Assembly: GCA_040756035.1 (NCBI GenBank)
Contig: JBFLZV010000003.1
Location: 11,970-75,969 of the forward strand
DNA: 64,000 nt
Source of the DNA: Pseudomonadota bacterium
Lineage (GTDB): Bacteria; Pseudomonadota; Gammaproteobacteria; SURF-13
Reading direction: 5' to 3'
Every line of letters begins with the position of its first letter. Position 1 is the stretch's first letter. The notes beneath the pieces are model-generated. The model was given only the letters and a program-made list of their open reading frames with translations, did no database searches and was not told the DNA's origin. The position numbers and the translations under genes were made by a program. Below are positions 11,697-35,653 of the stretch, piece by piece.

Positions 11697-11801
11697 GGCG
11701 GTCCGTGGAATTTAGGATGGCGGTTTTAGTTGAACTTTTATAATCAAGATTGATTTGACTGCTAATATAGCATATCACTGCGCTCGACCACATTGAGCGG
11801 A

Positions 11802-12617
11802 CTACGCTCCCGCCTGCGCCGCATCGTAGCCATGCACCCACTGCCGGCACTCGACCCTCCGAGCGCGGCCCTGCACGGCCAACGCGGCGGCATAACCGGG
11901 CAAATCAGGCAAGTCATGGAGCGTCCAGCGCTGTTCCTCGGCGGGATCATCTTGCGCGCCGATCACGCGCGGCGCCTCTCCCGGCGCCAGGGTGACGCTG
12001 AATTGATGCAAGGGAAAGCTCAGGCCCTTGCCCAGGGCTTTGATGTACGCCTCCTTGCGCACCCAGCAGGTAAAAAAAGCGCGCTGTCGTTGCGCCGGCG
12101 GCAACGCGCGCAGCGCGGCGATCTCGCGCGCGGAAAAAAATTGCGCGGCGATGTGCTCGTGTTCCGGTTGCGTCTGAACGCGCTCGAGATCGACGCCGAC
12201 TTCGCGCCCGCGCGCCAGCGCGCAGAGCACCACGCCGTGCGAGTGCGCGTAATTAAAGCGCACATCCGACGGATTGCATTGTTCGAGCAAGGCGGGCTTT
12301 CCGTATTCGTTGTAACCAAAGCGCAAGGCGGCGGGCGGCGTGTTTAAATAGCATCCCAGTAGCGTGCGCAGCAGCCCGCGCGCCGCGATGAATTGCGCGC
12401 GGTCTTTTTGAAAGTGAAAGCGCGCGGCCCTGGCTTGCTCATCCGCGCTTAAAAATTCCCGCCAACGCGAAACGTTGATATCACCTATATGCGCGCGCCA
12501 CACGTGCACCGTATCCGTTTCCAACATGAATCGTTGCGGAATGAGCCGCCGGAGCGGCTGTGTTGCCGACATTGTTCCGTTAACCCGCCAGCGATATGGG
12601 TGGACTGAAATCATCAT
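11802..12617 (-). CDS. Sfp-type 4'-phosphopantetheinyl transferase
   Basis: FNYAHSHGVVLCALARGREVGVDLE and WVRKEAYIKALGKG (PPTase motifs 2 and 3); directly downstream of the NRPS; alternative start at 12572. Confidence 0.85.
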   Translation of the reverse strand: MMISVHPYRWRVNGTMSATQPLRRLIPQRFMLETDTVHVWRAHIGDINVSRWREFLSADEQARAARFHFQKDRAQFIAARGLLRTLLGCYLNTPPAALRFGYNEYGKPALLEQCNPSDVRFNYAHSHGVVLCALARGREVGVDLERVQTQPEHEHIAAQFFSAREIAALRALPPAQRQRAFFTCWVRKEAYIKALGKGLSFPLHQFSVTLAPGEAPRVIGAQDDPAEEQRWTLHDLPDLPGYAAALAVQGRARRVECRQWVHGYDAAQAGA

Positions 12618-15600
12618 CGTGCACCGCTGCCGTTTCTTTTGCCTCTTTTTCCGCCTGCGCCCGCGCCGTACTGATGCAATCGCTTAGGTGCTTGGCCAAC
12701 GTACGCACTTGCGGTTCGCGGAAAATGGTAATGTGGTCACAGTCCAGGCTATAGCTTTCCACGCCGCGCGCAGCCAAGCGCTCCCATTCGCGCTGATAAC
12801 GCGCATGGCGGCGCCGCGTGATGCTCTGGCTCGCCCAAAACAAGGTAATGCGCCCGGGATAAGGGCCGGTCCGATACACCTTTTGCGCCCGCACGTCGGC
12901 GTCGAACACGTACTGCGTGCGCACGGCCTCCGGGATGGTCAAGCCCAGGGCGCGAAATAGTTTGTAGATTCCCCGCTTGCTGCTTAACCGCAATTTCTTG
13001 CCGACTTTTTCCGCAAGATACAATGCTTTTCCCTTGCCATCGAGCAAATTTAGATTATCCCAGTGTTCGCGCAATTTACTGCTGTGGGGCGCCGGCGCAG
13101 AATTGCCTTGCACACATGGGCTGGGGCTGTCGATCAGCGCGAGCAGCGCCACCTGCTGACCTTGCGCGTGAAGTTTGCGCGCCAGTTCAAAGGCGATCCA
13201 GGCGCCGAAGCAAGCGCCGCCTAGATAATACGGCCCTTCGGGTTGCAGCGAGCGTATCGCCTTGAGGTAATTTTCCGCCATGTCTTCCACGCGCGTTAAC
13301 GGCGTTTGTTTACCGTCCAGTCCGGGCGGCTGCAATCCGTAAAACGGCTGATCCGCGCCGAGATGGCGCGCCAGTTGGCGCATCCCGAAAAGATTTCCGC
13401 CCGCGCCGGTGATACCGAAGAAAATGGGCTGCGCGCCCGCGGGCTGAATCGCCACCAGCGGCGACCACGCCGGCGCGCAGCCCTCCTGGCGCAGCAGCAT
13501 GGCCAGCTGTTCGACGGTGGGCGCCTTGAATAGATCGGCCACCGGCAAATTTTTCCCGAAAGTTTTTTTGATGTGCGCAACCAAACGCACCGCCAGCAGC
13601 GAGTGTCCGCCGCGCTCGAAGAAATCGTCGCGCACGCCGATATTGCGCACACCCAGCACCTTTTCCCATATTCTCGTGAGCTGCAACTCCAAATCGTCGC
13701 GCGCGGCCATGTACGTGGACCGCTGCCCCGTCTCCTCCGATCCCGGCAAGGCGTGCTTATCGACCTTGCCGTTGGGGGTGAGCGGCAGGGCCGCGAGGGG
13801 CAACAGGTATTGCGGCAACATGTACGCCGGCAGTTTGCTTTGCAGGTAGGCGCGCAGCGCCTCGGTGTCGCACGCGGCGCCGGCGCGGGGTACGACGTAG
13901 GCGGCGAGGTGTTTGTCGCCGGATGGCTCGTGGCGCGCCACCACCACGCTCTCGCGCACCGCCGGATGTTGCGCGAGCACCGCTTCGATTTCGCCGAGCT
14001 CGATGCGGAAGCCGCGGATTTTGACTTGCCGGTCGCGCCGCCCGAGAAACTCGATGACGCCGTCGGGCCGGTAACGCGCCAGGTCGCCGGTTTTGTAGAG
14101 ACGCTGCCCCGGCGCGTAGGGATGCGGGATGAATTTTTCCGCGGTCAAGTCGGGCTGGTTGAGGTAGCCGCGCGCCAGGCCGTCGCCGCCGATGTACAGT
14201 TCGCCGGGCACGCCGAGGGGCACGGGGTGCAGGCACCGGTCGAGGAGGTAGACGTGGGTGTTGGCGATGGGCCGGCCAATGGGGACGCCGCCGGTTAGGG
14301 GTTGGTCGCGCGGGATGCGGTAACAGCAGGTGAAGGTGGTGTTTTCGGTGGGGCCGTAGCCGTTGATGAGCTGGCAATCGGGAAGATGCTGCAACACCTT
14401 TTGGGCGTGCGGGACGGACAAGACGTCGCCGCCGGCCAAGAGTTGACGCACGGGCTTGAGGGCGTCGAGGCGTTCGTCGACCATTAAATGGAACAGGCCG
14501 GCGGTGAGCCAGAGGATGCTGACCTGGTGCCGGCGCAGAGTTTCGCCGAGCAATTCCAGGGACGGGGTTTGATCGGGTAATAGGACTAAGCGGGCGCCGT
14601 TGAGCAGCGCACCCCAGATTTCGAACGTGGAGGCGTCGAAGGTGAGGGGGGCGGCTTGCAGGAATACGTCGGTGGGGCAAATGTGGACATAGTCGGTGTT
14701 TTTCACCAAGCGCACGACGCCGCGCTGGGGGACGAGCACGCCCTTGGGTTGGCCGGTGGAGCCGGAGGTGTAGAGGATGTAGGCGAGGCTGTCGGCGCTG
14801 GCCTGGCTTACCGGGTTGTGGTCGGGGTAGTGCTGCTGCAAGCTCGGCCAGTCGCTGTCGAGACACAGAGTCGGCACGATACTATCGGGAAGGCGCGCAC
14901 GCAGGTGCGCCTGGGTAAGCAGTAATGTAATGCCGGCGTCTTGCAGTATGAAGCGTTGCCGTTCGGCGGGATACGCGGGGTCGAGCGGGACGTAGGCGGC
15001 CCCGGCTTTGAGGATGGCGACGAGGCCGACGAGCAGGTCGAGCGAGCGTTCCAGACACAGGCCGATGCGCACTTCGGGGCCGGCGCCGTGGGCTTGCAGG
15101 TGGTGGGCGAGTGCGTTGGCGCGCTGGTTGAGTTCGGCGTAGGTGAGCTGGGCGTGTTCATGGACGAGGGCCACGTGGTCGGGGGTGGCCGCGGCTTGTT
15201 GTTCGAAGAGTTGCGCGAGCGTGGCGTCGCGCGGGTAGGGGGTGGCCGTGGCGTTCCCATCGTGCAGCAGGGCTTGGCGCTCCTCTTCGGTGAGTAAGGC
15301 CAGTTCGCTTAGGCGCTTGCCGGGGTGGGCGGAGAGGTCGTCCAACAATACACTAAAATGATCGCATAAGCGCGCGATGGTCGCCGTTTCGAACAGATCC
15401 GTGTTGTATTCGAACGTGACGGTCAATTCCGAACCCGCTTCTTCCGCCACGAATAACGTCAGATCGAACTTTGCCGTTTGATTGTTGACGTTCAACGGCG
15501 TCAGCGTCAGACCCGGAAACTGCACCGTTTGCCGGGTATTGCTTTGCAGGACGAACGCCACTTGAAACAGCGGCGTGTGACCGAGGTTGCGTCCCGGCTG

Positions 15601-16740
15601 CATCGCCTCGACCAACTCCTCGAACGGCAATTCTTGATGATCGTAAGCTTCCAGCGCCGTTTCACGCACGCGTTGCAACGCCTCGCTGAAACTCGGGTCG
15701 CCGGAAAGATCGGTGCGCAGCACCAGCGTGTTGAGAAAAAAACCGATCAGCCCCTCGACTTCGAGCGACAGGCGATTGGAAATAGGCGAGCCGACGATGA
15801 TATCGTCTTGGCTCGTATAGCGATGCAACAACACCTTGAACGCCGCGAGCACGGTCATGAACAAGGTTGCGCCATGGCGTTGACTCAACGCGGCGAGCGC
15901 CTTGCCCAGCGCGGCGGGCAGGCGCCGCGTATACACTCCGCCGCGAAAAGTCTGCATGGCGGGGCGCGGGTGATCGGCTGGCAGTTCCAACATCGACAGT
16001 TCACCGCGCAATTTATTTTTCCAGTAGGCAAGCTGCCGCTCGCGCACGCCCTCTTGCAGGCGTCGCCGCTGCCAGCACGCGAAATCGGCATACTGAATGG
16101 GCGGATCGGCGAGCGGCGCGGCGACGCCGCGCCGGTAGGCGTCGTACAGCGCCGCCATTTCGCGCTTGAGAATGTCGCGCGACCACAGGTCGAACACGAT
16201 GTGGTGCACGTTGAGCAGCAGCACGTGTTCCTGCGCGCCGGCGCGCAGCAGCGTGGCGCGCAGCAGCGGGCCGCGCGCCAGGTCGAACGGCCGGGATGCC
16301 TCCTGGGCGGCGCGGCGCTCGATTTCGGCGGCGCGTGTGTTTTCCGGCGCGTGACTCAAATCGATGACGGGCAATGTTATTTCGCGCGGTGGATGGATCA
16401 CTTGCCGCGGTTCGCCGTCCACGTTTTCAAACGTGCTGCGCAGCGTCTCGTGGCGGCGCATAACTTCGCTGAGCGCGCGTTGCAGCGCGGCGACGTCGAG
16501 CGCGCCGTGCAGTTTCCAGGCGTCGAATACGTTGTACAGGGCGCTGTCCGGGTGCCACTGCTCGAGAAACCATAAGCGTCGTTGCGCGAACGACAGCGGT
16601 GCGTCATCGCCCGCTGCGCGCGGCGTAATGCGCGGCGCCGGCGTCGCTGCGACACCCTGCTCTTCCAGTAACAAGGCAAGCAGCTCTTCTTGCGCGCTGT
16701 TCAAATCCGCCGTGCCACTCCCTTTCATCTCCGCACTCAC
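12580..16740 (-). CDS. NRPS termination module C-A-T-TE (TE with GxCxG)
   Basis: C domain (HHIVFDLWS), A domain (LTYAELN, YTSGSTGQPKGV, NGYGPTENTT, YKTGDLARY, GRRDRQVKIRGFRIELGEIE, LPNGKVD), PCP (FFERGGHSLLAVRL), TE (GITGAGGN...LGGACFGAW); likely start MKGSG/GTG ~16728-16740 after an RBS GGAGGAGAG. Confidence 0.9.
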   Translation of the reverse strand: MSAEMKGSGTADLNSAQEELLALLLEEQGVAATPAPRITPRAAGDDAPLSFAQRRLWFLEQWHPDSALYNVFDAWKLHGALDVAALQRALSEVMRRHETLRSTFENVDGEPRQVIHPPREITLPVIDLSHAPENTRAAEIERRAAQEASRPFDLARGPLLRATLLRAGAQEHVLLLNVHHIVFDLWSRDILKREMAALYDAYRRGVAAPLADPPIQYADFACWQRRRLQEGVRERQLAYWKNKLRGELSMLELPADHPRPAMQTFRGGVYTRRLPAALGKALAALSQRHGATLFMTVLAAFKVLLHRYTSQDDIIVGSPISNRLSLEVEGLIGFFLNTLVLRTDLSGDPSFSEALQRVRETALEAYDHQELPFEELVEAMQPGRNLGHTPLFQVAFVLQSNTRQTVQFPGLTLTPLNVNNQTAKFDLTLFVAEEAGSELTVTFEYNTDLFETATIARLCDHFSVLLDDLSAHPGKRLSELALLTEEERQALLHDGNATATPYPRDATLAQLFEQQAAATPDHVALVHEHAQLTYAELNQRANALAHHLQAHGAGPEVRIGLCLERSLDLLVGLVAILKAGAAYVPLDPAYPAERQRFILQDAGITLLLTQAHLRARLPDSIVPTLCLDSDWPSLQQHYPDHNPVSQASADSLAYILYTSGSTGQPKGVLVPQRGVVRLVKNTDYVHICPTDVFLQAAPLTFDASTFEIWGALLNGARLVLLPDQTPSLELLGETLRRHQVSILWLTAGLFHLMVDERLDALKPVRQLLAGGDVLSVPHAQKVLQHLPDCQLINGYGPTENTTFTCCYRIPRDQPLTGGVPIGRPIANTHVYLLDRCLHPVPLGVPGELYIGGDGLARGYLNQPDLTAEKFIPHPYAPGQRLYKTGDLARYRPDGVIEFLGRRDRQVKIRGFRIELGEIEAVLAQHPAVRESVVVARHEPSGDKHLAAYVVPRAGAACDTEALRAYLQSKLPAYMLPQYLLPLAALPLTPNGKVDKHALPGSEETGQRSTYMAARDDLELQLTRIWEKVLGVRNIGVRDDFFERGGHSLLAVRLVAHIKKTFGKNLPVADLFKAPTVEQLAMLLRQEGCAPAWSPLVAIQPAGAQPIFFGITGAGGNLFGMRQLARHLGADQPFYGLQPPGLDGKQTPLTRVEDMAENYLKAIRSLQPEGPYYLGGACFGAWIAFELARKLHAQGQQVALLALIDSPSPCVQGNSAPAPHSSKLREHWDNLNLLDGKGKALYLAEKVGKKLRLSSKRGIYKLFRALGLTIPEAVRTQYVFDADVRAQKVYRTGPYPGRITLFWASQSITRRRHARYQREWERLAARGVESYSLDCDHITIFREPQVRTLAKHLSDCISTARAQAEKEAKETAAVHDDDFSPPISLAG
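14738..15340. repeat. 603-bp direct repeat copy 1 (C-A linker to core A3 of the A domain), 602/603 identical to 18187-18789
   Basis: Base-by-base comparison of the two stretches; identical 150-aa and 118-aa ORFs in the track (14808..15260 = 18257..18709; 14941..15297 = 18390..18746). Confidence 0.95.
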
Positions 16741-16742
16741 GA

Positions 16743-19700
16743 CTACTCTCCTCCAGCCCGTTTGATCGCCCGCCGCTGCGCCAACTGGGCGCGCACCGCT
16801 TCCGGGCTGAGTTGAGCGACCTCGGTATACAAGCGCGCGCGTGCCTCGAGGCGGGCTGGGTCGGAGACCGTCGCGGTGAGCCGCGCGCATAAGGCGCTCA
16901 CGGAGGGAGCCTCAAACAGGGTGCGCACCGGCACGCTCACCCCCAACGCCTCACGCAGCCGCGCCAACACCTGGATGGCCAGCAACGAGTGTCCGCCGAG
17001 CGCGAAGAAGCCGCTGTGGCGGTCGATTTGCCCGCGGCCTAATACTTGCGCATAGAGCATGGCGATGACCTGTTCGATAGGACCCTCGGGGGCCGCGCCG
17101 GGGACGGGCATAACGCTAGCCTCTACAGGCGGGGCCGGTAAGGCGTTGCGGTCGAGTTTGCCGTGACGGGTAAGCGGGAGCTGGGGCAGGCTGACATAAG
17201 CGCTTGGCAGCAAGTACTCGGGCAGGCGCGCGCTAAGGTGAGCGCGCAGGCTCGCCTCGTCCGGCTTGTCGCCGTCGCGCGCGACGATATAAGCCACCAG
17301 ACGCGCGTCGGCTGCTCCCGGACTCTTGCCCTGCGCGATAATCGTGCGTTCCCGCACATCGCCGGGCGCGTCTTCGCGTACGCTGACGGCGGCGGCTTGC
17401 ACGCCCGGGTGGGTCTGAAGGAGAGCCTCGATCTCGCCCAGTTCGATACGGTAGCCTCTGAGTTTGACTTGGCCGTCCAGGCGCCCGAGATATTCCAGCA
17501 TCCCGTCGGAGCGGCGGCGTACGCGGTCGCCGGTTTGGTAAAGCCGTGCCCCCGGCTGGTAGGGGTCAATCACAAAACGCTGGATGGTGAGATCGGGGCG
17601 ATTGAGATAGCCACGTCCGACCCCCGTCCCGCCGATATAGAGTTCGCCCGCCACGCCCACGGGCACGGGCTGGCGCTCTGCGTCAAAAATGCGTAGGCCG
17701 ACATGCGGGAGGGCGTGGCCGAGGTGTGGGGTGCTGCCGGGGGTGAGGCGCGCGAAGGTAGCGTCCACGGTGCATTCGGTGGGACCATAGAGGTTATAGG
17801 CGGCCCAGTCGGGACAGGCGGCAATCGCCTCCCATAGACCGGACACGAGGGCCTCGCCGCCGATGAGCAGGCAGATTGGGCGGTAGGTGTCCGGGGCGAG
17901 CAGGCCGGCCTGGGTGAGCAAGGTAAGCTGGGTCGGCGTGGTATCGAGGACGTCGATGCGCGCCGTGGCAAGGTACTCCAGCAGGGCCGCGCCGTCCGGG
18001 CGGCAGGCCTCGGGCACCAGGCACAGGGTGTGACCGCTCAGCAGTTGCAGCCATTGTTTGACGGAAGTGTCGAAATAGATCGGACCGTTGAGGCTCACGC
18101 GCAGAGGTCGCGCGGGCGCGAGGTCGTGATAGACGGTATCGGCCAGGGCCTGGTGCAAATGAACCAGAGCGCCGTGTTCGATCATGACGCCCTTGGGTTG
18201 GCCGGTGGAGCCGGAGGTGTAGAGGATGTAGGCGAGGCTGTCGGCGCTGGCCTGGCTTACCGGGTTGTGGTCGGGGTAGTGCTGCTGCAAGCTCGGCCAG
18301 TCGCTGTCGAGACACAGAGTCGGCACGATACTATCGGGAAGGCGCGCACGCAGGTGCGCCTGGGTAAGCAGTAATGTAATGCCGGCGTCTTGCAGTATGA
18401 AGCGTTGCCGTTCGGCGGGATACGCGGGGTCGAGCGGGACGTAGGCGGCCCCGGCTTTGAGGATGGCGACGAGGCCGACGAGCAGGTCGAGCGAGCGTTC
18501 CAGACACAGGCCGATGCGCACTTCGGGGCCGGCGCCGTGGGCTTGCAGGTGGTGGGCGAGTGCGTTGGCGCGCTGGTTGAGTTCGGCGTAGGTGAGCTGG
18601 GCGTGTTCATGGACGAGGGCCACGTGGTCGGGGGTGGCCGCGGCTTGTTGTTCGAAGAGTTGCGCGAGCGTGGCGTCGCGCGGGTAGGGGGTGGCCGTGG
18701 CGTTCCCATCGTGCAGCAGGGCTTGGCGCTCCTCTTCGGTGAGTAAGGCCAGTTCGCTTAGGCGTTTGCCGGGGTGGGCGGAGAGGTCGGCGAGCAGCGT
18801 CTGGTAGTGCCGCGCCCAGCGTTCGATGGTCGCGGCGTCGAATAGGTCGGTGTTGTAATCCCATTGTACGCGGAACTCGCTGCCCGTCTCGACGATGTTC
18901 ACCTTGAGATCGAAGTTAATATTCTTTTTCGGATTACTGCGAGCTTCCACGTGCAAGTCGTGGAACATTAGATGATCCTGTGCATAATCCACGTTGAACG
19001 TCACCGTGGTAAGCGGCGTTCTGCCGGGATCGCGCGTGACGTTGAGTTTCTCCAGTAAACTCCCGTACGTGTAGTGTTGATACTCATGAATATCCAGAAC
19101 GGCGGCCTTTATCTCTTTTAGAAAGTCGGCTGCTTTTTTCTCGCCCATCACGGGTCGCCGCAGCGGTAGAAAATTCACGCAGTGGCCGACCAGACTGTCG
19201 CCGCTTACCGGAATTTGCCCGGCGGCGGGAATGCCGACCACGATGTCTTCCTGCCCGCTCATGCGATGCAGGAAAACCTCAAACGCCGCCAGCAACATGC
19301 AGAATAACGTGCAACTATGCCGCATCGCCGCGCGCTTTATATCTTGATAAAGTGGTTGCCCGATACTGAAAACATAGCGCGCGCCGTTATAAGTGAGCAC
19401 GGGAGGACGCGGGCGGTCAGTGGGCAACTCCAGCGCCGCAACCGGTTCGGAAAACTGTTGCACCCAGTAAGTCTCGGCGGCGACGCGCTCCGGGCTTTGC
19501 GCCTGCTCTGCTTGCAGGCGTGCGTACTCGCTGAATTGCATGGGCGGCGCCAGCGCCGCGTCCGTGCCCGTGCACGCCGCCGCGTAAAGCGCGCCGAGAT
19601 CGCGCAGCAGCACGCCCACCGACCAGCCGTCGCACACGATATGATGCGCGGTAATGAGCAAAAAGTGATGCAAATCTTCCAGCTTCACCAAGTGGAAGCG

Positions 19701-22700
19701 CAACAGCGGGCCGGTGGTGAGATCGAATGCGCGCCGCACATCGTGCTCCACCAGTGCGCTCATTTTCTCGGCACGCTGCTCCGCATTCAAATTAGAGAAG
19801 CCTAGAATCGGCACCTCGGCGGTCATCGTCGGCAGAATTTCCTGATAATCGCCCTGCGCGCTGAATACGGTGCGCAACGCCTCGTGGCGCGCGACCAAAT
19901 TTTGCACGGCCTCGCGCAGCGCGGCGTTGTTCAACGGGCCGCGCAGATGCAGCATCAGGGAATCGTTGTAACAACACGATGCCTCCTCGCCCAGCTGCGC
20001 GGCGATCCAAAGTTCCTTCTGAGGTCCGGTCAACGGCAAGCGCACCGGCTCGCGCGCCTCGGCGCTTCGCGCGATCTCGCGCCGCACCGGCTGCGGCGAG
20101 TCGGCCTCCTGCTCCGCGGGCTCGGGGAAAAATCCGCCCGCCTGCATTTCCGCAATGCTTTCCTTGAAGGCGCGGATGATTCGATCGATGTCCTCGTCGC
20201 TGTGCGCGGTGGAAAGAAAGCACGGGCGGCCTTCCCAAATGTGGATACCCTTGTCGCGTAAATGATAAAAAAGCAGGCCGGCGAATTTTTGCTCGCCCTC
20301 GAAGTGCACATAGAACATGGAGCTGAAATGTGTGATGCGCACGGGTGCTTGATGTGCACGGAAATAATCGTTGAGCACCGCGGCCAAAGCCGCCGTTTTG
20401 CGATTCAACTGCTCCTGCAAACCGGGCCCGCTGCGTTTCAAGTGTTCGAGCACCGCGCGCGCCGCGGTCAAAGCGAGAGGATGGCGCACGAAGGTGCCGG
20501 CAAAGAACGTCACGCCGACCTCCGGAAACGAGTTGTCTCCGTAATTCCACGCGCCGCCGTCGAAGGCGTCCAGATAACGCGCCCGCCCCGCCAACGCGCC
20601 GATGGGCATGCCGCCGCCGATCACCTTGCCGTAGGTGGCGAGGTCGGCGCGCACGTCGAACAGCGCCTGCGCGCCGCCGGGATGCGCGCGGAAACCGGTG
20701 ATGACTTCATCGAAGATGAGCGCCGTGTCCGAGGCCGCGGTCAGGCGCCGCACCTCTTGCAGAAATTCCCTGGGTTGCAAATCGGGATGCCGGCTCTGCA
20801 CGGGTTCGACCAGCACGGCGGCGAGTTGCGGGCCGTGCTTTTTCAGCAACGCGAGCGACGCGGGCGCACCGTACTCCAAAACCAGCACGTCCTGCACCAT
20901 GTGTTCCGGTATGCCGGGCGCTATCGGCAGCGGGCGCGAATGTCCGCCGCGCGTGGACGCGCGCACCAGCACTTCGTCGAAAATGCCGTGATAAGAGCCG
21001 GCGAACAACGCGATTTTGTCGCGCCCGCTGACGGTGCGCGCCGCACGCAGCGCCGCCATCACCGCCTCGGAACCGGTGTTGCAAAAAATCGCGCGCTCCA
21101 TGCCGGTGAACGCGCACAGCGCTTCCGCGACTTTGCCGGCCAGCGGCGAAGTCGGCCCGATTTCCATGCCCGACTCGAGCTGATCCTGCAACGCCTCGGT
21201 GACGAAAGGCGGCGCATGGCCGAATAGATTGACGCCGAAGCCCATGGTCAAGTCGATATACTCATTGCCGTCCACGTCCCAAATTTTGGAGCCGGACGAA
21301 CGCGCGGCGACGATCGGATAAACCATTTCCTTCCATTGCAAACGAAATCCAGAAACCGCGCGCGGGTCGCAAAAATGCGCGCGGTGCGCCTTGGTGTAGC
21401 GCTTGGACTCCGCGGTGCGCCGCGTATAGCGCCCGATCAACGCCCCCAAGTGTTTTTGCTGACGCGCGTTGAGGCCGCCGCCGATTCCTTTTTCAATGGG
21501 CTTGTAAGGGCCAAAGGGCTTACTCTCCGCGCGCGCTTCCCGCACCGTGTGCCGCGCCATGCTCGCCGGCGCGCCCACGTCGGGCGCCGCAGCCTCGGCG
21601 TTTCCGGCCTTGCCCCAGAGTGCGGCGCTGCGGCGCAACTCCTCCAATTGTTTTTCAATGAGCGCCAATTGCCGCGCCACGGCGTCGGCCTGCGGTTGCG
21701 CGGGAGCGGTTTTCTCCGAGGCGGAATCGGATACTTCATCCTCGCGCAACGCCTCGGTCGGCAAGGAACGATCCAGGTAGCCCGCCAGCGCTTCCAGCGT
21801 GGCGGATTCCTCCAGCAGTTGGCGGAACGGAACTTTCACGTTGAATTTTTTTTGCAGCGCGTGGCTGATCTGCGTGAGAAACAGAGAATCAAAGCCCATT
21901 TCCAAAAACGTCGTGGTGGCGCCGATGGCGGTTATGTCCAACCCCGACAATTCGCTCAAAGCCTCTTGCAGCATCGGCAGCAGCTTTTCCCGCCGGCTGA
22001 ACGACTTTTTTACACTCGTTTCAATCATTTGTTCCTCAAGCATGACGCCCTCCTCGCACTCTTCTCCCTTAATGATTTTTTGTGCAACTCTATTTTTTGC
22101 GCGCGGCGGTTCCACCCAGTAATGTTTCCGCTCGAACGCGTAACCGGGCAATGGCACGCGCCGCCGCCGCTCATGCGCGTGAAATTGCGTCCAATTAACC
22201 GTCGCGCCGGTCAACCACAACCGGCCCACGGCATCCAGCAAACAAGCGATGTCCGACCGATTATCCTGTGCGGCGCGTGCCGAGGTGATAACGGATTGCT
22301 CGGCGCGCTTGGCGGGATGCTGGCGCGCCAGCGTGCTCAGTGTTTGTCCGGGGCCGACTTCCAAAAGAACGTGTTCGGTTTTGTTCAGCAGCGTTTGCAA
22401 GCCGGCGGCGAAACGCACGGTGTGGCGCATGTGCCGCACCCAGTACTGCGGATCGGTCGCCTGCGCGGCGTCGATCCACGTTCCGGTGACGTTGGAGACG
22501 TAGGGAATCTGCGGGGGATGCAGGGCAACTTTGCGCAGTTGTTCGAGAAACGGCGCGAGGATCGGCTCCACCATCATGGAGTGGAAGGCGTGCGAGGTGT
22601 GCAGGCGCCGGTGCACGATTTCTTCCTTGGTGAGCCGCTCTTCCAGCGCCTCGATCGCGGCGTTCGGACCGGACACGACGCACAGCGCGGACCCGTTCAC

Positions 22701-24740
22701 CGCCGCCAGGCACAGTTCGCCGCCCAGCAACGGCTGCACCGTCTCTTCGTTCACACGCACGGCGAGCATGGCGCCGCCGGGCAAACTTTGGACGAGCCGC
22801 GCCCGCTCCGCCAGCAAGTTGAGCGCGTCGTGCAGCGTAAGCACGCCCGCCAGGCAAGCCGCCGTGTATTCGCCGAGGCTGTGTCCGATCATGGCCTGCG
22901 GCCGCACGCCCCACGCCATCCATAGTTTGGCGAGCGCGTATTCCACCGTGAACAGCGCCGGCTGCGTGATCCAGGTTTGTCCTAGCAGCTTCCGCGCCTG
23001 TTCCGTTTGCTCGGCGGATGGATACAATACGCTGCGCAGGTCGAGGCCCAGCAACGGTTGTAATAATTCCGCGCAGGCGTTGACGTGTTCCTGGAACACC
23101 GGCTCGCTCTCGTACAGCTCGCGGCACATATCGACGTGCTGCGCGCCCTGTCCAGGAAACATGAAGACCACCGGCGCCTGATCGTGCACGGCGACGTGCG
23201 TGGCCATGCGCGCGGCGTCATCCGCGCGCAAGATTCGTAGCGCGTCCGCCGCGTCTTGGCACACCAACATGCGCCGATGCGCATAGTGCTTGCGTCCGGC
23301 GTGTAACGTAAACGCGGCGTCGGCAAGATTAACTTCGGGTTGGCGCTCCAAATGTTCGGCCAGGGCGTCGGTCGTCGCATTCAGCGCGGCGGCGGTTTTC
23401 GCGGACAAGGTCAACACTTGCCAGGGCCGCGTCGCCTGCGCCGCGGCCGGCGCGGGCGCCTCTTCCAGCACTACGTGCACATTGGTGCCGCCGATGCCGA
23501 ACGAACTCACGCCGGCGCGGCGCGGCAATTTATCCGTGCGCCACTCGCGCAGTTCGGAGTTGACGTAGAACGGACTGTTGGCGAAATCGATTTTCGGATT
23601 AGGCTGCTCGAAGTGCAGGCTGGGCGGCAACATTTTGTGATGCAGCATCAAGGCGGTTTTAACCAATCCGGCGACGCCCGCCGCGATGTCCAAATGCCCG
23701 ATGTTGGTTTTCACCGAGCCGATGGCGCAAAAGTTTTTCTCCTGCGTCGCAACACGGAAGGCCTGTGTGAGACCGGCGATTTCTATGGGATCACCGAGCG
23801 GCGTGCCGGTGCCGTGCGCCTCCACGTAGGTGACGGTGTCGGGCTCGACGCCGGCCACGGCCTGCGCCATCGTGATCACCCGCGCCTGGCCGTCGATGCT
23901 CGGCGCTGTGTAGCCGGCCTTGAGCGCACCGTCATTGTTGACGGCGCCGCCCTTGATGACGGCCCAGATATGATCGCCGTCGGCCATGGCGTCGTCCAAT
24001 CTCTTCAGCACCACCGCCGCGGCGCCCTGCCCGCCCACCATGCCCTGCGCCTTGGCGTCGAACGCGCGGCAGTGACCATCGCCGGAATAGATGCCGCCTT
24101 CCTGGTACAAGTGGCCGCGCTTTTGCGGAAACGATATGGAGACGCCGCCGGCCAACGCCATGTCGCACTGGTAATCGAGCAGACTTTGGCAAGCGCTGTA
24201 CACCGCCACCAGCGACGTGGAGCACGCGGTCTGCACCGTCATGCTCGGACCTTGCAAATTCAACTTATAGGAAACGCGCGTGGCGAGAAAATCCTTGTCG
24301 TTGGCGATGATGGGCGCCAATCCGGTCAGGCTCCGGAATTTCGGATGCGGATACAGATTATGCAGCAAGTAGCTGTTCGTGCCGGCGCCCGCGTACACGC
24401 CTATCAATCCGGGGTAAGTATCCGGATCGTAACCGGCATTCTCCAAGGCATGCCAGCAGCATTCCAAAAATACGCGCTGCTGCGGATCGATGATCTCCGC
24501 TTCCCGGGGTTGATAGCCGAAGAACGCCGCGTCGAATGCGATGGCGTCGTCCAGCACGGCGCGCGCGCGCACGTAGTTCGGATCATGAATGAGCGCGTCA
24601 TCCACGCCGGATTCTTCCAGCTCCTGCGCAGTAAAAAATCTTACAGATTCCTTGCCGCCTTGCAGGTTGCGCCAGAATTCCTCAATATCGTTCGCGCCGG
24701 GAAATCGTCCGGCCATGCCGATAATGGCTATCCCTTCCAT
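16743..24740 (-). CDS. hybrid PKS-NRPS: KS-AT-ACP-aminotransferase(AMT)-C-A-T
   Basis: KS (TACSTSLVA, EAHGTGT, HLDIAAG-type), AT (GHSLGEY, HAFH = malonyl-specific), ACP (LEMGFDSLF), class-III aminotransferase domain (GSEAVMAALRAAR, KVIGGGMP; the PLP Lys lies in the latter), C (HHIVCDGWS), A, PCP (FFALGGHSLLAI). Confidence 0.9.
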   Translation of the reverse strand: MEGIAIIGMAGRFPGANDIEEFWRNLQGGKESVRFFTAQELEESGVDDALIHDPNYVRARAVLDDAIAFDAAFFGYQPREAEIIDPQQRVFLECCWHALENAGYDPDTYPGLIGVYAGAGTNSYLLHNLYPHPKFRSLTGLAPIIANDKDFLATRVSYKLNLQGPSMTVQTACSTSLVAVYSACQSLLDYQCDMALAGGVSISFPQKRGHLYQEGGIYSGDGHCRAFDAKAQGMVGGQGAAAVVLKRLDDAMADGDHIWAVIKGGAVNNDGALKAGYTAPSIDGQARVITMAQAVAGVEPDTVTYVEAHGTGTPLGDPIEIAGLTQAFRVATQEKNFCAIGSVKTNIGHLDIAAGVAGLVKTALMLHHKMLPPSLHFEQPNPKIDFANSPFYVNSELREWRTDKLPRRAGVSSFGIGGTNVHVVLEEAPAPAAAQATRPWQVLTLSAKTAAALNATTDALAEHLERQPEVNLADAAFTLHAGRKHYAHRRMLVCQDAADALRILRADDAARMATHVAVHDQAPVVFMFPGQGAQHVDMCRELYESEPVFQEHVNACAELLQPLLGLDLRSVLYPSAEQTEQARKLLGQTWITQPALFTVEYALAKLWMAWGVRPQAMIGHSLGEYTAACLAGVLTLHDALNLLAERARLVQSLPGGAMLAVRVNEETVQPLLGGELCLAAVNGSALCVVSGPNAAIEALEERLTKEEIVHRRLHTSHAFHSMMVEPILAPFLEQLRKVALHPPQIPYVSNVTGTWIDAAQATDPQYWVRHMRHTVRFAAGLQTLLNKTEHVLLEVGPGQTLSTLARQHPAKRAEQSVITSARAAQDNRSDIACLLDAVGRLWLTGATVNWTQFHAHERRRRVPLPGYAFERKHYWVEPPRAKNRVAQKIIKGEECEEGVMLEEQMIETSVKKSFSRREKLLPMLQEALSELSGLDITAIGATTTFLEMGFDSLFLTQISHALQKKFNVKVPFRQLLEESATLEALAGYLDRSLPTEALREDEVSDSASEKTAPAQPQADAVARQLALIEKQLEELRRSAALWGKAGNAEAAAPDVGAPASMARHTVREARAESKPFGPYKPIEKGIGGGLNARQQKHLGALIGRYTRRTAESKRYTKAHRAHFCDPRAVSGFRLQWKEMVYPIVAARSSGSKIWDVDGNEYIDLTMGFGVNLFGHAPPFVTEALQDQLESGMEIGPTSPLAGKVAEALCAFTGMERAIFCNTGSEAVMAALRAARTVSGRDKIALFAGSYHGIFDEVLVRASTRGGHSRPLPIAPGIPEHMVQDVLVLEYGAPASLALLKKHGPQLAAVLVEPVQSRHPDLQPREFLQEVRRLTAASDTALIFDEVITGFRAHPGGAQALFDVRADLATYGKVIGGGMPIGALAGRARYLDAFDGGAWNYGDNSFPEVGVTFFAGTFVRHPLALTAARAVLEHLKRSGPGLQEQLNRKTAALAAVLNDYFRAHQAPVRITHFSSMFYVHFEGEQKFAGLLFYHLRDKGIHIWEGRPCFLSTAHSDEDIDRIIRAFKESIAEMQAGGFFPEPAEQEADSPQPVRREIARSAEAREPVRLPLTGPQKELWIAAQLGEEASCCYNDSLMLHLRGPLNNAALREAVQNLVARHEALRTVFSAQGDYQEILPTMTAEVPILGFSNLNAEQRAEKMSALVEHDVRRAFDLTTGPLLRFHLVKLEDLHHFLLITAHHIVCDGWSVGVLLRDLGALYAAACTGTDAALAPPMQFSEYARLQAEQAQSPERVAAETYWVQQFSEPVAALELPTDRPRPPVLTYNGARYVFSIGQPLYQDIKRAAMRHSCTLFCMLLAAFEVFLHRMSGQEDIVVGIPAAGQIPVSGDSLVGHCVNFLPLRRPVMGEKKAADFLKEIKAAVLDIHEYQHYTYGSLLEKLNVTRDPGRTPLTTVTFNVDYAQDHLMFHDLHVEARSNPKKNINFDLKVNIVETGSEFRVQWDYNTDLFDAATIERWARHYQTLLADLSAHPGKRLSELALLTEEERQALLHDGNATATPYPRDATLAQLFEQQAAATPDHVALVHEHAQLTYAELNQRANALAHHLQAHGAGPEVRIGLCLERSLDLLVGLVAILKAGAAYVPLDPAYPAERQRFILQDAGITLLLTQAHLRARLPDSIVPTLCLDSDWPSLQQHYPDHNPVSQASADSLAYILYTSGSTGQPKGVMIEHGALVHLHQALADTVYHDLAPARPLRVSLNGPIYFDTSVKQWLQLLSGHTLCLVPEACRPDGAALLEYLATARIDVLDTTPTQLTLLTQAGLLAPDTYRPICLLIGGEALVSGLWEAIAACPDWAAYNLYGPTECTVDATFARLTPGSTPHLGHALPHVGLRIFDAERQPVPVGVAGELYIGGTGVGRGYLNRPDLTIQRFVIDPYQPGARLYQTGDRVRRRSDGMLEYLGRLDGQVKLRGYRIELGEIEALLQTHPGVQAAAVSVREDAPGDVRERTIIAQGKSPGAADARLVAYIVARDGDKPDEASLRAHLSARLPEYLLPSAYVSLPQLPLTRHGKLDRNALPAPPVEASVMPVPGAAPEGPIEQVIAMLYAQVLGRGQIDRHSGFFALGGHSLLAIQVLARLREALGVSVPVRTLFEAPSVSALCARLTATVSDPARLEARARLYTEVAQLSPEAVRAQLAQRRAIKRAGGE
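18187..18789. repeat. 603-bp direct repeat copy 2 (inside the A domain of the hybrid gene)
   Basis: See copy 1; single mismatch near the 3' end. Confidence 0.95.
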
Positions 24741-24774: not shown

Positions 24775-30192
<5,418 letters not shown>

Positions 30193-30276
30193 TAAACCCT
30201 CCTCCCTGAGGTTCACCGATGTTTTAATTAATCCCGCATTAACTCGCGGCGCGCATAATGCACGCGGCGCCCGCAA

Positions 30277-30649: not shown

Positions 30650-33600
30650 TCAGCGCGTTCGTTCATTGCGCGCAACCGCCTCCGGATGTTCGCGGCGCGC
30701 CCGCAAGGCCGCGTCGATACGGCGCGCCAGATCGGCCAGCGTAGGCGTTTCAAAAAACGTGCGTAACGGAATTTCCACGCGCAGCGCGGCGCGCAGCCGC
30801 GAGATAATTTGCGCGGCGTGCAGGGAATGGCCGCCTAATTCGAAGAAATTATCGTGCCTGTCAATGTGCGCCAAGCCCAGCACATCCTTCCAAATTTCTC
30901 CCAGTGCGTTTTCCAGCGCGCCCTCTAGAAAATAGTCGGAAGCTCGATGCTGTTTGGGGGGTGGCAAAGCGTGATAATCCACTTTACCGTTGGGCAGACG
31001 CGGCAAGGCGTCCAGCACCACGAACAACGGCGGCACCATGTGTTCGGGCAGCGCGCGCCGCGCGAAACTGCGCAACTGCGCAACCAGCAAATGGCGGCTG
31101 TCATCGACGACGCCGGACGTTGCCGGTTTGTTGGCGTAGTCACTCCAATTTTTACGGCGCACCGCTTCCGGCTCGAATCGGAACACCGGCCGCCGGACGT
31201 ACTGCATTCTCTTGCGCTGCAACAGCACGTCGAAGCAGTCGAGATGCGCGTCGCCCGACCATGTAATGCTCGCCTGATAACCTAATTCTTCACCCAGCGC
31301 CCATAAGTCTCCGGGCTCCACGCCGATCTCACGCGGCGACTCCTGTAATATTTTGCGCAATTCGCCCGCGTTCGCGGTGATGGCGTCCGCCTCCAATAAT
31401 TCCAAGGCCTTCACCTCACTTAGCAGACGTGCATTGGGAACATGCTTGATGCCCAGGGTGTCTGTACTATTTTCCGCCAGCAGCCGGCGCAACGCCGCAA
31501 TCGTCAAACCATGTTTCCGCCAGTCCAGCCACGTGATATACAACGCGTGGGAGGACGATGCCCCGATGTGCAGCATCACATCATATTTGAAGCGCGTGAT
31601 TTCATTGTGGCAGCGCCCGCCTTTGAGCTGCATCTCCACGTGGCTAATCTTGGGCAGACGCTCGGCCAGTGCATTAAACAAGGCGGGGTCGACGGCCAAG
31701 TCCTTTTCGCGCGCCAAGTGTTCCTGTACGAGTTTACATAGATCGGCCTTGGTCGTTGCAGGCGGGGCAAGCCGCATCTGCACCGAGGCGTGAAACACTT
31801 TCAGCAACGGCAAACTGCGAATGCCGCCGAGAAACACCACGCCGCCGGGCTTGACGTGTTCAACGGCGTTTTCCAAGACGTTGATAAGATATTCCACGCC
31901 GGGGAAGTGCTGCACGACCTCATTGATAACGACGACGTCAAACTTCTCGACCCCGCACGCCACCGCTTCATGCGCCGCCTCGTGCAGCAGTGTCAACGTA
32001 GCGAATTTGGCGGGACGCGTCGCCATACGCCGCTGCAGGCGCTCGATGGCCACGGAGGAAATGTCCGTGCCGCAATAATGTTTACAATGCGGACCGATTC
32101 TGTCCAGCAGTAAACCAGAGCCGCAGCCGATCTCCATAACGCGCGCGGGTTGCAGCGCCAGAATACGCCGCGCGGTATCGTCCACGCATTCGGTAATCTC
32201 CTCCAGCGGCAGCGCCTCGCGCGTATAACTACTGATCCAAATTTTTAAATTAATCGCCGCGTCCGTTTGCAAAAAGTCCTGGTCCTGACCGTAAAGATCG
32301 TCATACATGGCGCGATATTGTTCGACGTGGCGCACGTCCTCGCCACCCTTGTATTTCGGTTCGTCCACGGCATCGGCGCACAGCGGGAACTTCGGCGCCA
32401 CGTATGCCACCAAGCGCTTGTCGCCGAGCGTATCCTCGCGCACCATCACCGCGGCCTCGCGCACCGCGTCGTGTTCATGCAGCACGGCCTCGATCTCGCC
32501 CGGCTCGATCCGATAACCGCGCAGCTTTACCTGGCGGTCCATGCGGCCTATAAACTCCAGATCGCCGCTCGGCAAGTAGCGCGCCAGATCGCCCGTTGCA
32601 TACAAACGCGCGTCCGGTGCGGAGCTGAACGGATCGGCGATGAATTTCTGCGCGGTCAAATTGGGCTGGTTAAGATAACCGCGCGCCACGCCCGGCCCGC
32701 CGATGCACAGTTCGCCCGCCGCACCCTCCGTCACCGGGCGGTGTTGTGCGTCCAGCAAATAAATGCGCGTGCCGGCCGGCGCGCGGCCGATGGGCACCGG
32801 CGTCTTGGCATCGTGCCGACGGCAGTCATACACACTGCACCACACCGTGCCCTCGGTGGGCCCATATTCATTGAACAACGGCGTTGCGCCCAACGCCGCG
32901 CGGTGCCGCTCCACCAATTTGATCGGGCAGACTTCCCCCGCCACGACCACCGTGCGCAGCGAAGTTAGTGCGTACGTCTCCGCATGTTCTAAAATGTGCT
33001 CATAGAAAACCGGCAGGCACAGCAGGTGCGTAATCCGGCTCTGTTCGATTGTGCGCGCAACATACGCGGGATCACGTTGCAGATCGGGAGTCAGTAGGAA
33101 CAGCGTCCCACCTTGGCACAGTGTCCAGTAAATGCCTGCCACCGAACTATCGAAAGCGAATTGCGAGAGCAACAGGAAGCGCGCGACCGGGATTTTGTAA
33201 TAATCCAACCGCGCGCGCGTGGAGTATGCAAGGTTCTTGCGCGTGATTAGCACGCCCTTGGCGCGCCCCGTCGATCCGGACGTGTAAATAACATAGGCGA
33301 GATTTTGCGCGTGCGCGGCGTCGGAAATATTTTCCGCGCTCTCGCGATTGATTGCGGACATCGCGGCGTCGAGTTGCACGATGCATCCACCGAAACGCGG
33401 GAAGCGCCCGCTCATGGCCGCGCCGGTGAGCAACAGCGATGCGCGCGCGTCTTCCAGCATCCAAGCCAGACGCTCATGCGGATATGCCATATCCAGAGGC
33501 AAATAGGCCGCGCCGCTTTTTAGAACGCCGAGCATACCGAGCAGCATATCCAGCGGGCTATTCAAGTAAAGCGCCACCAGCACATCTGGGCCGGCGCCCG

Positions 33601-34079: not shown

Positions 34080-35653
<1,574 letters not shown>

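What the first reader, a model, noticed from the sequence alone, without database searches (positions are those of the whole stretch)
13203..13217. Terminal thioesterase has Cys in the nucleophile position (G-A-C-F-G instead of GxSxG)
In the TE domain of the C-A-T-TE protein, the nucleophile elbow reads LGGACFGAWIAFE, encoded on the minus strand at 13203-13217 (GGC GCT TGC TTC GGC). Canonical NRPS/PKS TEs have Ser there. Cys-TEs are rare and are associated with unusual release chemistry, for example beta-lactone formation in obafluorin ObiF, or altered macrocyclisation kinetics. Together with a glycerate or hydroxy starter, this suggests lactone or strained-ring release.
Basis: seen in the sequence. 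Interest (0 to 1): 0.7.

Follow-up and report, generated by a model that had tools for sequence, protein, structure and literature searches.

The report
Cysteine-type thioesterase ending an NRPS-PKS line

Summary
G-A-C-F-G is encoded on the minus strand at 13218..13204, one base off the stated range, and the Cys codon TGC is at 13212..13210. It is the nucleophile elbow of the terminal TE of a C-A-T-TE protein (12580..16728). Sequence, profile and structure comparisons all put this Cys on the catalytic Ser of other TEs, with Asp116 after the next strand and His248 downstream. The TGC codon is identical in four assemblies, one of them with two SNPs elsewhere, so it is not a sequencing error. Cys is also kept in syntenic relatives that are 46-54% identical.

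It is not exceptional in its own clade. Cys fills this position in 63 of 121 aligned sequences (120 homologue clusters plus the query), in 24 of 93 TE matches in species-representative genomes, and in 66 of 184 TE domains from an unbiased search. The closest solved structure, A. baumannii AB3403, has the same Cys with Asp in the same place.

The beta-lactone or strained-ring idea is not supported. The ObiF/SulM hallmarks are absent, and the last module is predicted to load valine. The TE most likely forms an acyl-thioester intermediate. That intermediate is resolved by an amine (the beta-amino group made by the in-line aminotransferase), a hydroxyl, or water. This is a new member of a known kind.

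The parts
13204..13218 (-). Nucleophile elbow G-A-C-F-G (GGC GCT TGC TTC GGC). The Cys codon TGC is at 13210-13212, which is Cys89 of the TE domain and Cys1173 of the 1382-aa protein.
   Evidence: Aligned to the catalytic Ser/Cys of solved TEs. Lies between strand 83-88 and helix 90-104 in the AF2 model.
13129..13131 (-). Asp116 (Asp1200) in ALIDSPSP, the triad acid in the ordinary 'position I' directly after strand 109-115.
   Evidence: This column is D in 101 of 121 aligned sequences. It aligns to the MIDTRAP Asp of AB3403.
12733..12735 (-). His248 (His1332) in LDCDHITIF, the triad histidine after strand 239-244.
   Evidence: (H248 is nearly invariant). It aligns to GDHSSIM of AB3403.
12583..13476 (-). 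Thioesterase domain (298 aa including its C-terminal helix).
12580..16728 (-). Gene for C-A(Val)-T-TE, 1382 aa. The mechanical ORF runs on to 16890, but the likely start is the ATG at 16728, which gives the 1382-aa length of the gene called in GCA_049322975.1.
   Evidence: Stachelhaus code DAFWLGGTFK.
16743..24740 (-). Hybrid PKS-NRPS: KS, AT (GHSLGE...HAFH, malonyl type), ACP, class-III aminotransferase, C, A (code DTKDLGLVDK, Glu/Gln-like), T.
24775..30276 (-). FkbH-ACP-C-A(Thr, DFWNIGMVHK)-T. The start codon is uncertain.
   Evidence: (TIGR01686 FkbH, 7e-84).
30650..33757 (-). A-T module with a methyltransferase inserted in the A domain. It has no C domain, and its code DSACVAEVW- is unassigned.
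11802..12617 (-). Sfp-type 4'-phosphopantetheinyl transferase. It is called as 241 aa in the NCBI record.
14738..15315 (.). One copy of a 578-nt exact direct repeat (the partner is 18187-18764). It covers the C-A linker and the N-terminal half of the A domains of the Val and Glu-like modules.

Best explanation
The Cys is the genuine catalytic nucleophile of a canonical type I chain-release thioesterase with a Cys89-Asp116-His248 triad. This is the same arrangement as in the solved A. baumannii AB3403 TE and in the polymyxin/macolacin cyclases.

Shown here:
- position, register and fold of the residue;
- its conservation in syntenic relatives and in its subclade;
- that the TE belongs to a populous clade in which a quarter to a half of members use Cys.

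Inferred mechanism. The Val-terminated chain on the last T domain is passed to the Cys thiolate by energy-neutral transthioesterification. This gives an acyl-S-enzyme, which is more reactive towards amines than an oxoester.

How the acyl-enzyme is then resolved is inferred only:
- Intramolecular aminolysis by the beta-amino group installed by the in-line aminotransferase domain, giving a small macrolactam. I put this at about 0.35-0.4. The analogy is with iturin and microcystin lines, and with MacB-TE, where Cys to Ser abolishes lactam closure.
- Hydrolysis to a linear acid, about 0.3.
- Lactonisation through the Thr or glycerate hydroxyls, about 0.2.
- A four-membered lactone or lactam, under 0.05.
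For: Register and triad:
- phmmer and profile alignments to EntF, Skyxy-TE and AB3403;
- a 121-sequence alignment with D at the acid column in 101 and H at the histidine column in 74;
- the AF2 model (pLDDT 93.7) with Cys89, Asp116 and His248 each at the end of the expected strand;

Not an error: the TGC codon is identical in four assemblies.

Selection:
- L001 carries KS-AT-ACP-AMT-C-A(Val)-T-TE, 50% identical over 1312 aa to the window's C-A-T-TE, and keeps Cys (TGC);
- L001's second TE has Cys (TGT);
- L088 has the same TE-PPTase-ispD-ispF-smr-GGDEF synteny and keeps Cys;
- the query's NJ subclade is 17/17 Cys.

Clade frequency of Cys: 63/121, 24/93 and 66/184.

Substrate: A-domain codes were read against a GrsA control that returned DAWTIAAICK correctly. 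They give Thr, Glu-like and Val. The aminotransferase domain is in line.

Literature:
- AB3403 has Cys with Asp at position I (PMC11298585);
- MacB-TE has Cys89/Asp116/His218, and its C89S variant hydrolyses but cannot cyclise (PMC13288461);
- Ser-to-Cys substitution improves McyC-TE and Pik-TE (PMC13288461).
Against: - No biochemical data exist for this enzyme or for AB3403's TE.
- The release mode is argued by analogy only.
- None of the 150 nearest representative TE proteins contains an aminotransferase domain, so Cys in this clade is not generally tied to beta-amine substrates.
- Ser and Cys have exchanged at least 9 times among 120 relatives, so the two may often be functionally interchangeable.
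- The role of the C-less A-MT-T module is unexplained, so the substrate on the TE is not fully known.
- The A-domain codes are assigned from remembered Stachelhaus tables, not from a predictor.
- A 578-nt exact repeat between two modules leaves some doubt about module order in a MAG assembly.
Confidence: 0.8

Rival explanations
1. This is an ObiF/SulM-like Cys-TE that closes a beta-lactone, beta-lactam or other strained ring during release.
For: The nucleophile is Cys. Both characterised four-membered-ring-forming TEs use Cys (PMC6668435, PMC11298585). The chain contains hydroxyl groups (FkbH glycerate, Thr) and an amine.
Against: - The triad Asp is in position I (Asp116), and no acidic residue follows strand 210-215. 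ObiF1 and SulM have the Asp relocated, and ObiF1 has Gly at position I (PMC6668435, PMC11298585).
- The SulM motif Gln-Cys-Asn is absent; here it reads Ala-Cys-Phe.
- The predicted C-terminal residue is Val, which has no beta nucleophile.
- No hydroxylase is present in the five-gene cluster.
Confidence: 0.04
2. Cys is a functionally neutral alternative to Ser in this clade. The TE simply hydrolyses, or cyclises, exactly as a Ser-TE would, and the residue carries no special chemical meaning.
For: A quarter to a half of the nearest relatives have Cys and the rest mostly have Ser. At least 9 Ser/Cys changes are needed on the NJ tree. A single base change converts TGC to AGC or TCC. The contexts of Cys-TEs are diverse: docking-domain stand-alone TEs, tandem TEs, NRPS and PKS termini.
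Against: - Cys is fixed in the query's 17-member subclade and in the syntenic relatives at 46-54% identity. This argues for constraint rather than drift.
- In the Cys-TEs that have been tested, Cys to Ser changes the outcome: MacB-TE only hydrolyses (PMC13288461), and ObiF requires its Cys for beta-lactone formation (PMC6668435).
Confidence: 0.25
3. The Cys-TE releases the chain by intermolecular attack of a free or carrier-bound amine. The model is the Cys-TEs of sorangibactin (SrbD), anthrochelin (AntB) and bulbichelin (BbchF), which are proposed to use homocysteine. The amine here could be the amino acid loaded on the orphan A-MT-T module.
For: SrbD, AntB and BbchF share a catalytic Cys and are proposed to off-load with homocysteine (PMC13573596). 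The window has an A-MT-T module with no C domain of its own, and its place in the line is unexplained.
Against: No sequence comparison with SrbD, AntB or BbchF was possible here. There is no precedent for a TE using a T-bound amino acid as acceptor. Whether L001 has the A-MT-T module is unknown, because its contig starts inside the FkbH gene.
Confidence: 0.08
4. The Cys codon is a sequencing or assembly error for Ser (TGC versus AGC/TCC), or the true elbow lies elsewhere.
For: None was found. The source is a metagenome-assembled genome.
Against: The TGC codon is identical in four assemblies, including one with two SNPs nearby. The syntenic relatives also encode Cys with TGC or TGT. The only GxS/CxG elbow after the right strand in the AF2 model is this one.
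Confidence: 0.01

Closest known systems
AB3403 (ABBFA_003403) C-A-T-TE termination module of Acinetobacter baumannii, PDB 4ZXH/4ZXI
   Same: - C-A-T-TE architecture.
- Elbow GWCFG with Cys.
- Asp directly after the next strand (position I), and His in GDH.
- PMC11298585 states that it is the only other structurally characterised NRPS TE with a nucleophilic Cys and Asp at position I.
   Different: - About 23-25% identity in structure-based alignment.
- The PDB title records it bound to AMP and glycine, so its A domain takes Gly, against the predicted Val here.
- It sits in a quorum-sensing-linked lipopeptide cluster (A1S_0112-0119, PMC5376624), not downstream of a PKS-aminotransferase hybrid.
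- The function of its TE is also untested.
MacB-TE / PmxB-TE, the Cys-dependent macrolactam cyclases of macolacin and polymyxin (PMC13288461)
   Same: - Cys-His-Asp triad with the acid 27 residues after the Cys (Cys89/Asp116 in both numberings).
- They are phylogenetically among the Ser-type type I cyclases rather than the type II-like TEs.
- An amine nucleophile is available in the substrate.
   Different: - No sequence was available for direct comparison.
- Their substrates are lipodecapeptides cyclised through a Dab side chain, whereas here the chain is short and glycerate-primed, with a backbone beta-amine.
- Cyclisation here is only inferred.
ObiF (obafluorin beta-lactone) and SulM (sulfazecin beta-lactam) TEs
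   Same: Cys nucleophile, and an acyl-thioester enzyme intermediate.
   Different: - In those enzymes the triad Asp is relocated (position II, RifR-like), and ObiF1 has Gly at position I.
- SulM has a Gln-Cys-Asn motif.
- They group with type II TEs (PMC6668435, PMC11298585).
- Their substrates end in a beta-hydroxy or beta-amino residue.
- None of these features holds here.
McyE / MycA-type KS-(AT)-ACP-aminotransferase-C-A-T hybrid modules (microcystin, iturin family)
   Same: The same domain order, with a class-III aminotransferase converting the beta-keto group to a beta-amine. In those pathways the beta-amine is the nucleophile that the terminal TE uses for ring closure (own knowledge). 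McyE also pairs the aminotransferase with a Glu-activating A domain (own knowledge).
   Different: Those TEs use Ser. Their chains are long (Adda, or a C14-C17 beta-amino fatty acid), whereas here the starter is FkbH-loaded glycerate plus Thr.
SrbD / AntB / BbchF Cys-TEs (sorangibactin, anthrochelin, bulbichelin)
   Same: A conserved catalytic Cys in place of Ser (PMC13573596).
   Different: They are proposed to release with free homocysteine in aryl-thiazoline siderophore lines. The assembly-line context here is unrelated, and they were not compared by sequence.

Membership tests
Type I NRPS/PKS chain-release thioesterase (Pfam PF00975, alpha/beta hydrolase) | Significant match to the Thioesterase family model, located directly after the last carrier domain | tested here: met
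   PF00975 gives 90.5 bits against a cut-off of 26.4, at residues 1171-1403 of the 1436-aa ORF. PP-binding is at 1071-1130.
Type I NRPS/PKS chain-release thioesterase (Pfam PF00975, alpha/beta hydrolase) | Nucleophile elbow G-x-(S/C)-x-G between a strand and a helix | tested here: met
   GACFG, with Cys89 between strand 83-88 and helix 90-104. It aligns to the Ser of EntF and Skyxy-TE.
Type I NRPS/PKS chain-release thioesterase (Pfam PF00975, alpha/beta hydrolase) | Triad Asp after the following strand and His near the C-terminus | tested here: met
   Asp116 follows strand 109-115 and His248 follows strand 239-244. The columns are D in 101/121 and H in 74/121 sequences.
AB3403-like Cys-TE (Cys nucleophile with Asp at position I) | Cys at the elbow together with Asp in the ordinary position, and closest similarity to AB3403 | tested here: met
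ObiF/SulM-type beta-lactone/beta-lactam-forming Cys-TE | Cys nucleophile | tested here: met
ObiF/SulM-type beta-lactone/beta-lactam-forming Cys-TE | Triad Asp relocated to position II, with no Asp at position I (Gly in ObiF1); PMC6668435, PMC11298585 | tested here: not met
   Asp116 is at position I. The loop after strand 210-215 reads SQSIT, with no acidic residue.
ObiF/SulM-type beta-lactone/beta-lactam-forming Cys-TE | Closest to type II TEs (RifR/RedJ-like) in structure and phylogeny | tested here: not met
ObiF/SulM-type beta-lactone/beta-lactam-forming Cys-TE | Last module loads a residue with a beta-hydroxyl or beta-amino group | tested here: not met
   The Stachelhaus code of the last A domain is DAFWLGGTFK, the Val code by remembered tables. 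This is a prediction, not an assay.
ObiF/SulM-type beta-lactone/beta-lactam-forming Cys-TE | SulM-specific Gln-Cys-Asn motif | tested here: not met
   The sequence reads Ala-Cys-Phe.
MacB/PmxB-type Cys-dependent macrolactam cyclase | Cys-His-Asp triad in a type I cyclase scaffold | tested here: met
   The Cys-to-Asp spacing is 27 residues, as in MacB-TE Cys89/Asp116 (PMC13288461).
MacB/PmxB-type Cys-dependent macrolactam cyclase | Substrate offers an intramolecular amine, and the product is a macrolactam | tested here: inconclusive
   An in-line aminotransferase domain should leave a free beta-amine, but the product is unknown.
MacB/PmxB-type Cys-dependent macrolactam cyclase | Sequence relatedness to MacB-TE/PmxB-TE | not tested
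   No sequence was available: no supplement is held and there is no PDB entry.

The most novel reading that the evidence does not exclude
The Cys-TE is required to close a small (roughly 10-12-membered) lactam between the C-terminal Val and the beta-amine made by the in-line aminotransferase, on a glycerate-primed Thr/Glu/Val hybrid chain. That would be an undescribed compound class from uncultivated Gammaproteobacteria. Its cluster has been kept next to ispD-ispF, which in the window means between ftsB and ispD, in at least three divergent lineages. That placement hints at a conserved physiological role rather than an accessory antibiotic.
Probability: 0.25. Interest if true: 0.5.

Novelty: new member of a known kind. 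Interest (0 to 1): 0.3.

Why it matters
- For genome mining, a Cys in the TE elbow should not by itself be read as a flag for beta-lactone or beta-lactam chemistry. The position of the triad Asp and the identity of the last residue separate the ObiF/SulM type from the far more common AB3403/MacB type.
- The tallies suggest that Cys-TEs are much more frequent in environmental NRPS/PKS lines of this clade (26-52%) than the ~2% quoted for known TEs. The thiol variant therefore looks under-studied.
- This cluster, with its syntenic relatives, offers a compact five-gene system in which to test what the thiol does.

Tried and rejected
- Sequencing error: rejected. The codon is identical in four assemblies.
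- Alternative elbow with Ser: rejected by alignments and the AF2 model.
- ObiF/SulM-type strained-ring release: rejected on Asp position, motif, structural neighbours and the predicted Val terminus.
- General link between Cys-TEs of this clade and aminotransferase domains: none of the 150 nearest representative proteins has such a domain, so the idea is not supported beyond this cluster family.
- Recent horizontal acquisition: GC content is flat at about 0.57-0.67 across cluster and flanks, so there is no compositional signal.
- Exact look-up of the 1382-aa protein found nothing. The genome was reached through IspF instead.
- The single scan of species-representative genomes did not contain the source genome. 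The best relative was 54% identical.
- Supplementary sequences for MacB-TE are not held, so no direct comparison could be made.
- A first regular-expression tally of the elbow failed and was replaced by a MAFFT column count.
- Product identity: the FkbH and aminotransferase literature search gave no matching known cluster.
Full report
**1. The observation**

On the minus strand the window reads cta ggc ggc gct tgc ttc ggc gcc. The ORF ends at 12580 and translates to ...EGPYYLGGACFGAWIAFELARKL.... In that frame G-A-C-F-G is encoded at 13218..13204, with the Cys codon TGC at 13212..13210. Otherwise the description is exact.

The protein is C-A-T-TE by Pfam: Condensation 4e-121, AMP-binding 2e-91, PP-binding 2e-15 and Thioesterase PF00975 2.5e-25. 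The mechanical ORF starts at 16890 and overlaps the upstream gene. The likely start is the ATG at 16728, which gives the 1382-aa length of the gene called in the public record.

**2. Register**

- A phmmer search of the 298-aa TE against all PDB chains aligns the Cys to the catalytic Ser of EntF (GYSLG) and Skyxy-TE (GWSLG; its deposited mutant reads GWALG). It aligns to a Cys in AB3403 (GWCFG).
- A profile built from 52 homologues matches AB3403 over the whole TE at 9.1e-96. LIDSPSP falls on MIDTRAP and CDHITIF on GDHSSIM.
- An AlphaFold2 model from that alignment has mean pLDDT 93.7.
- In the model, Cys89 sits between strand 83-88 and helix 90-104, Asp116 directly follows strand 109-115, and His248 follows strand 239-244.

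The elbow is therefore the real one, and the triad is Cys89-Asp116-His248. In the 1382-aa protein these are Cys1173, Asp1200 and His1332.

**3. Not an error, and conserved**

An exact look-up of the neighbouring IspF protein found the same locus in NCBI MAG GCA_049322975.1, labelled 'Pseudomonadota bacterium', and in Logan assemblies of three other sequencing runs. All four carry GGC GCT TGC TTC GGC. One of them differs from the window by two SNPs elsewhere in the TE, so it is an independent variant.

Two more divergent Gammaproteobacteria MAGs carry related clusters next to PPTase-ispD-ispF.

- L001 encodes FkbH-ACP, then KS-AT-ACP-aminotransferase-C-A-T-TE, then C-A-T-TE.
- L088 carries TE-PPTase-ispD-ispF-smr-GGDEF.
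- The C-A-T-TE part of the L001 hybrid is 50% identical to the window protein over 1312 residues. It has the same A-domain code, DAFWLGGTFK, and keeps Cys (GGGCFGG, codon TGC).
- L001's second TE (GGWCLGA, TGT) and the L088 TE (GGDCIGG, TGC) also have Cys.

In a rough NJ tree of 120 TEs, the query lies in a subclade whose 17 members all have Cys.

**4. How unusual is it?**

Within this TE clade it is not unusual.

| Sample | Cys | Ser | Other |
|---|---|---|---|
| 121 aligned sequences: 120 closest homologue clusters (word-indexed search of 5.8 billion proteins) plus the query | 63 | 57 | 1 Thr |
| 93 TE matches in 80 loci from species-representative genomes | 24 | 69 | 0 |
| 184 TE domains in the 150 best representatives (full HMMER scan of 1.84 billion cluster representatives) | 66 | 108 | 10 non-nucleophilic |

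Parsimony on the NJ tree needs at least 9 Ser/Cys changes.

The literature calls Cys-TEs rare, 'about 2% of known TEs' (PMC13288461). That figure may reflect which TEs have been characterised. It does not describe this clade.

**5. What kind of Cys-TE?**

Papers on ObiF1 and SulM define what sets the four-membered-ring-forming Cys-TEs apart.

- The triad Asp is moved to a second position, as in the type II TE RifR.
- ObiF1 has Gly where EntF and AB3403 have Asp.
- SulM has a Gln-Cys-Asn motif.
- Both group with type II TEs (PMC6668435, PMC11298585).

PMC11298585 also notes that AB3403 is the only other structurally characterised protein with a nucleophilic Cys, and that it keeps Asp at position I.

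The window TE is different on each point.

- It has Asp at position I.
- It has no acidic residue in the loop after strand 210-215 (SQSIT).
- It reads Ala-Cys-Phe at the elbow.

It is an AB3403-type Cys-TE, not an ObiF/SulM-type one.

A recent study of MacB-TE (macolacin; 90.6% identical to polymyxin PmxB-TE) is also relevant. It shows that a Cys89-His218-Asp116 TE clustering with Ser-type cyclases performs macrolactamisation. Its C89S variant still acylates but only hydrolyses (PMC13288461).

**6. The assembly line and the substrate on the TE**

All genes are on the minus strand, in this order.

| Coordinates | Domains |
|---|---|
| 30650..33757 | A-T with a methyltransferase inserted in the A domain; no C domain |
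| 24775..30276 | FkbH-ACP-C-A-T (TIGR01686 FkbH, 7e-84) |
| 16743..24740 | KS, AT, ACP, class-III aminotransferase, C, A, T |
| 12580..16728 | C-A-T-TE |
| 11802..12617 | Sfp-type PPTase |

- The AT domain has GHSLGE and HAFH, which by established motifs is the malonyl type.
- The flanks are housekeeping genes. On one side are ispD, ispF, smr, surE and nlpD. On the other are ftsB, eno, kdsA, pyrG, tilS, accA, dnaE, rnhB and lpxB.
- No hydroxylase, MbtH-like protein or transporter gene lies inside the cluster.
- GC content is flat across the region.

Stachelhaus residues were read by alignment to GrsA-PheA. The control returned the known DAWTIAAICK.

| A domain | Code | Assignment |
|---|---|---|
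| A-MT-T module | DSACVAEVW- | none |
| FkbH protein | DFWNIGMVHK | Thr |
| Hybrid protein | DTKDLGLVDK | closest to the Glu/Gln codes |
| TE protein | DAFWLGGTFK | Val |

- The Val code is the ungapped reading of YGPTENTTF.
- The assignments rest on my recollection of the published code tables, not on a predictor.
- The chain reaching the TE is therefore predicted to be glyceroyl-Thr-(C2-extended, beta-aminated)-Glx-Val.

A C-terminal Val cannot form a beta-lactone or a beta-lactam.

**7. Most likely mechanism**

- Shown: a Cys-Asp-His type I TE of the AB3403 kind, under constraint in its lineage.
- Inferred: the peptidyl thioester on the last T domain is exchanged onto Cys1173. The resulting acyl-thioester enzyme is then resolved.

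In the aminotransferase-containing hybrid lines I know of (iturin/mycosubtilin, microcystin/nodularin), the beta-amine is the ring-closing nucleophile. MacB-TE needs its thiol for aminolysis, and McyC-TE is reported to gain activity on Ser-to-Cys substitution (PMC13288461). On that basis I rank the release modes as follows.

| Release mode | Rough probability |
|---|---|
| Lactam closure by the beta-amine | 0.35-0.4 |
| Hydrolysis | 0.3 |
| Lactonisation through Thr or glycerate hydroxyls | 0.2 |
| Intermolecular amine capture | under 0.1 |
| Four-membered ring | under 0.05 |

One caution applies. None of the 150 nearest representative TE proteins contains an aminotransferase domain. The Cys in this clade is therefore not generally coupled to such substrates.

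**8. Verdict**

- The claim of rarity does not hold in this clade, and the strained-ring inference fails the tests that could be run.
- This is a new member of a known kind (AB3403/MacB-like Cys-TEs) in an uncharacterised, compact PKS-NRPS cluster of uncultivated Gammaproteobacteria. Interest is modest.

Noticed in passing
window 14738-15315 and 18187-18764: A 578-nt exact direct repeat covers the C-A linker and the N-terminal half of the A domains of the Val module and the Glu-like module. A third copy, about 81% identical over the 300 nt compared, starts at 26153 in the Thr module. This suggests recent module duplication or gene conversion. The short Logan contigs are about 4.3 kb and carry about 717-727 codons of the NRPS gene, which by arithmetic puts their end close to this repeat; I did not check the contig ends directly. 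The repeat is also a possible source of MAG misassembly of module order.
   Followed up: partly
L001 1874-10855 and 10980-15167: The related cluster in another Gammaproteobacteria MAG has two Cys-TEs. One is KS-AT-ACP-aminotransferase-C-A(Val)-T-TE. It is followed by a separate C-A(DILALGMVWK, Gly-like)-T-TE, which recalls the Gly-binding AB3403. Compared with this, the window has an extra Glu-like module and no TE on the hybrid protein.
   Followed up: partly
proteins P0008, P0011, P0015 and others; loci L005, L011, L021, L033, L045 and others: A large group of ~375-aa ACP-TE proteins, mostly from Acidobacteriota, has Cys in the elbow (GGYC[LM]GG). Where the catalytic His should align it has Pro or Ala (..LPVYPAGML..). 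Either the His lies elsewhere or these are His-less Cys enzymes.
   Followed up: no
proteins P0132-P0135, P0140, P0141, P0170, P0172: Among the nearest representatives are tandem TE-TE proteins. The first TE has Cys in most of them. The other TE has Gly, Ala or Asp at the nucleophile position, so it looks like a degenerate, probably non-catalytic partner.
   Followed up: no
window 10507-12617 and 33757-35644; L001 15211-17280; L088 949-4983: In the window the five-gene cluster sits between ftsB and ispD, splitting the usual eno-ftsB-ispD-ispF row. In all three MAG lineages examined the TE is followed directly by PPTase-ispD-ispF, at 46-54% TE identity. The ftsB side was seen only in the window. 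GC content is the same as the flanks, so the placement looks old rather than a recent island.
   Followed up: partly
window 30650-33757: An A-T module with a ~450-aa methyltransferase insertion in the A subdomain has no C domain and an unassigned specificity code (DSACVAEVW-). With three C domains serving four A domains plus the FkbH loader, its place in the assembly line is unexplained.
   Followed up: no
window 16729-16890: The long ORF of the TE protein begins at 16890, 148 nt inside the upstream gene. The ATG at 16728 lies 14 nt after the upstream stop, is the likely start, and gives the 1382-aa length of the gene called in the NCBI record.
   Followed up: yes
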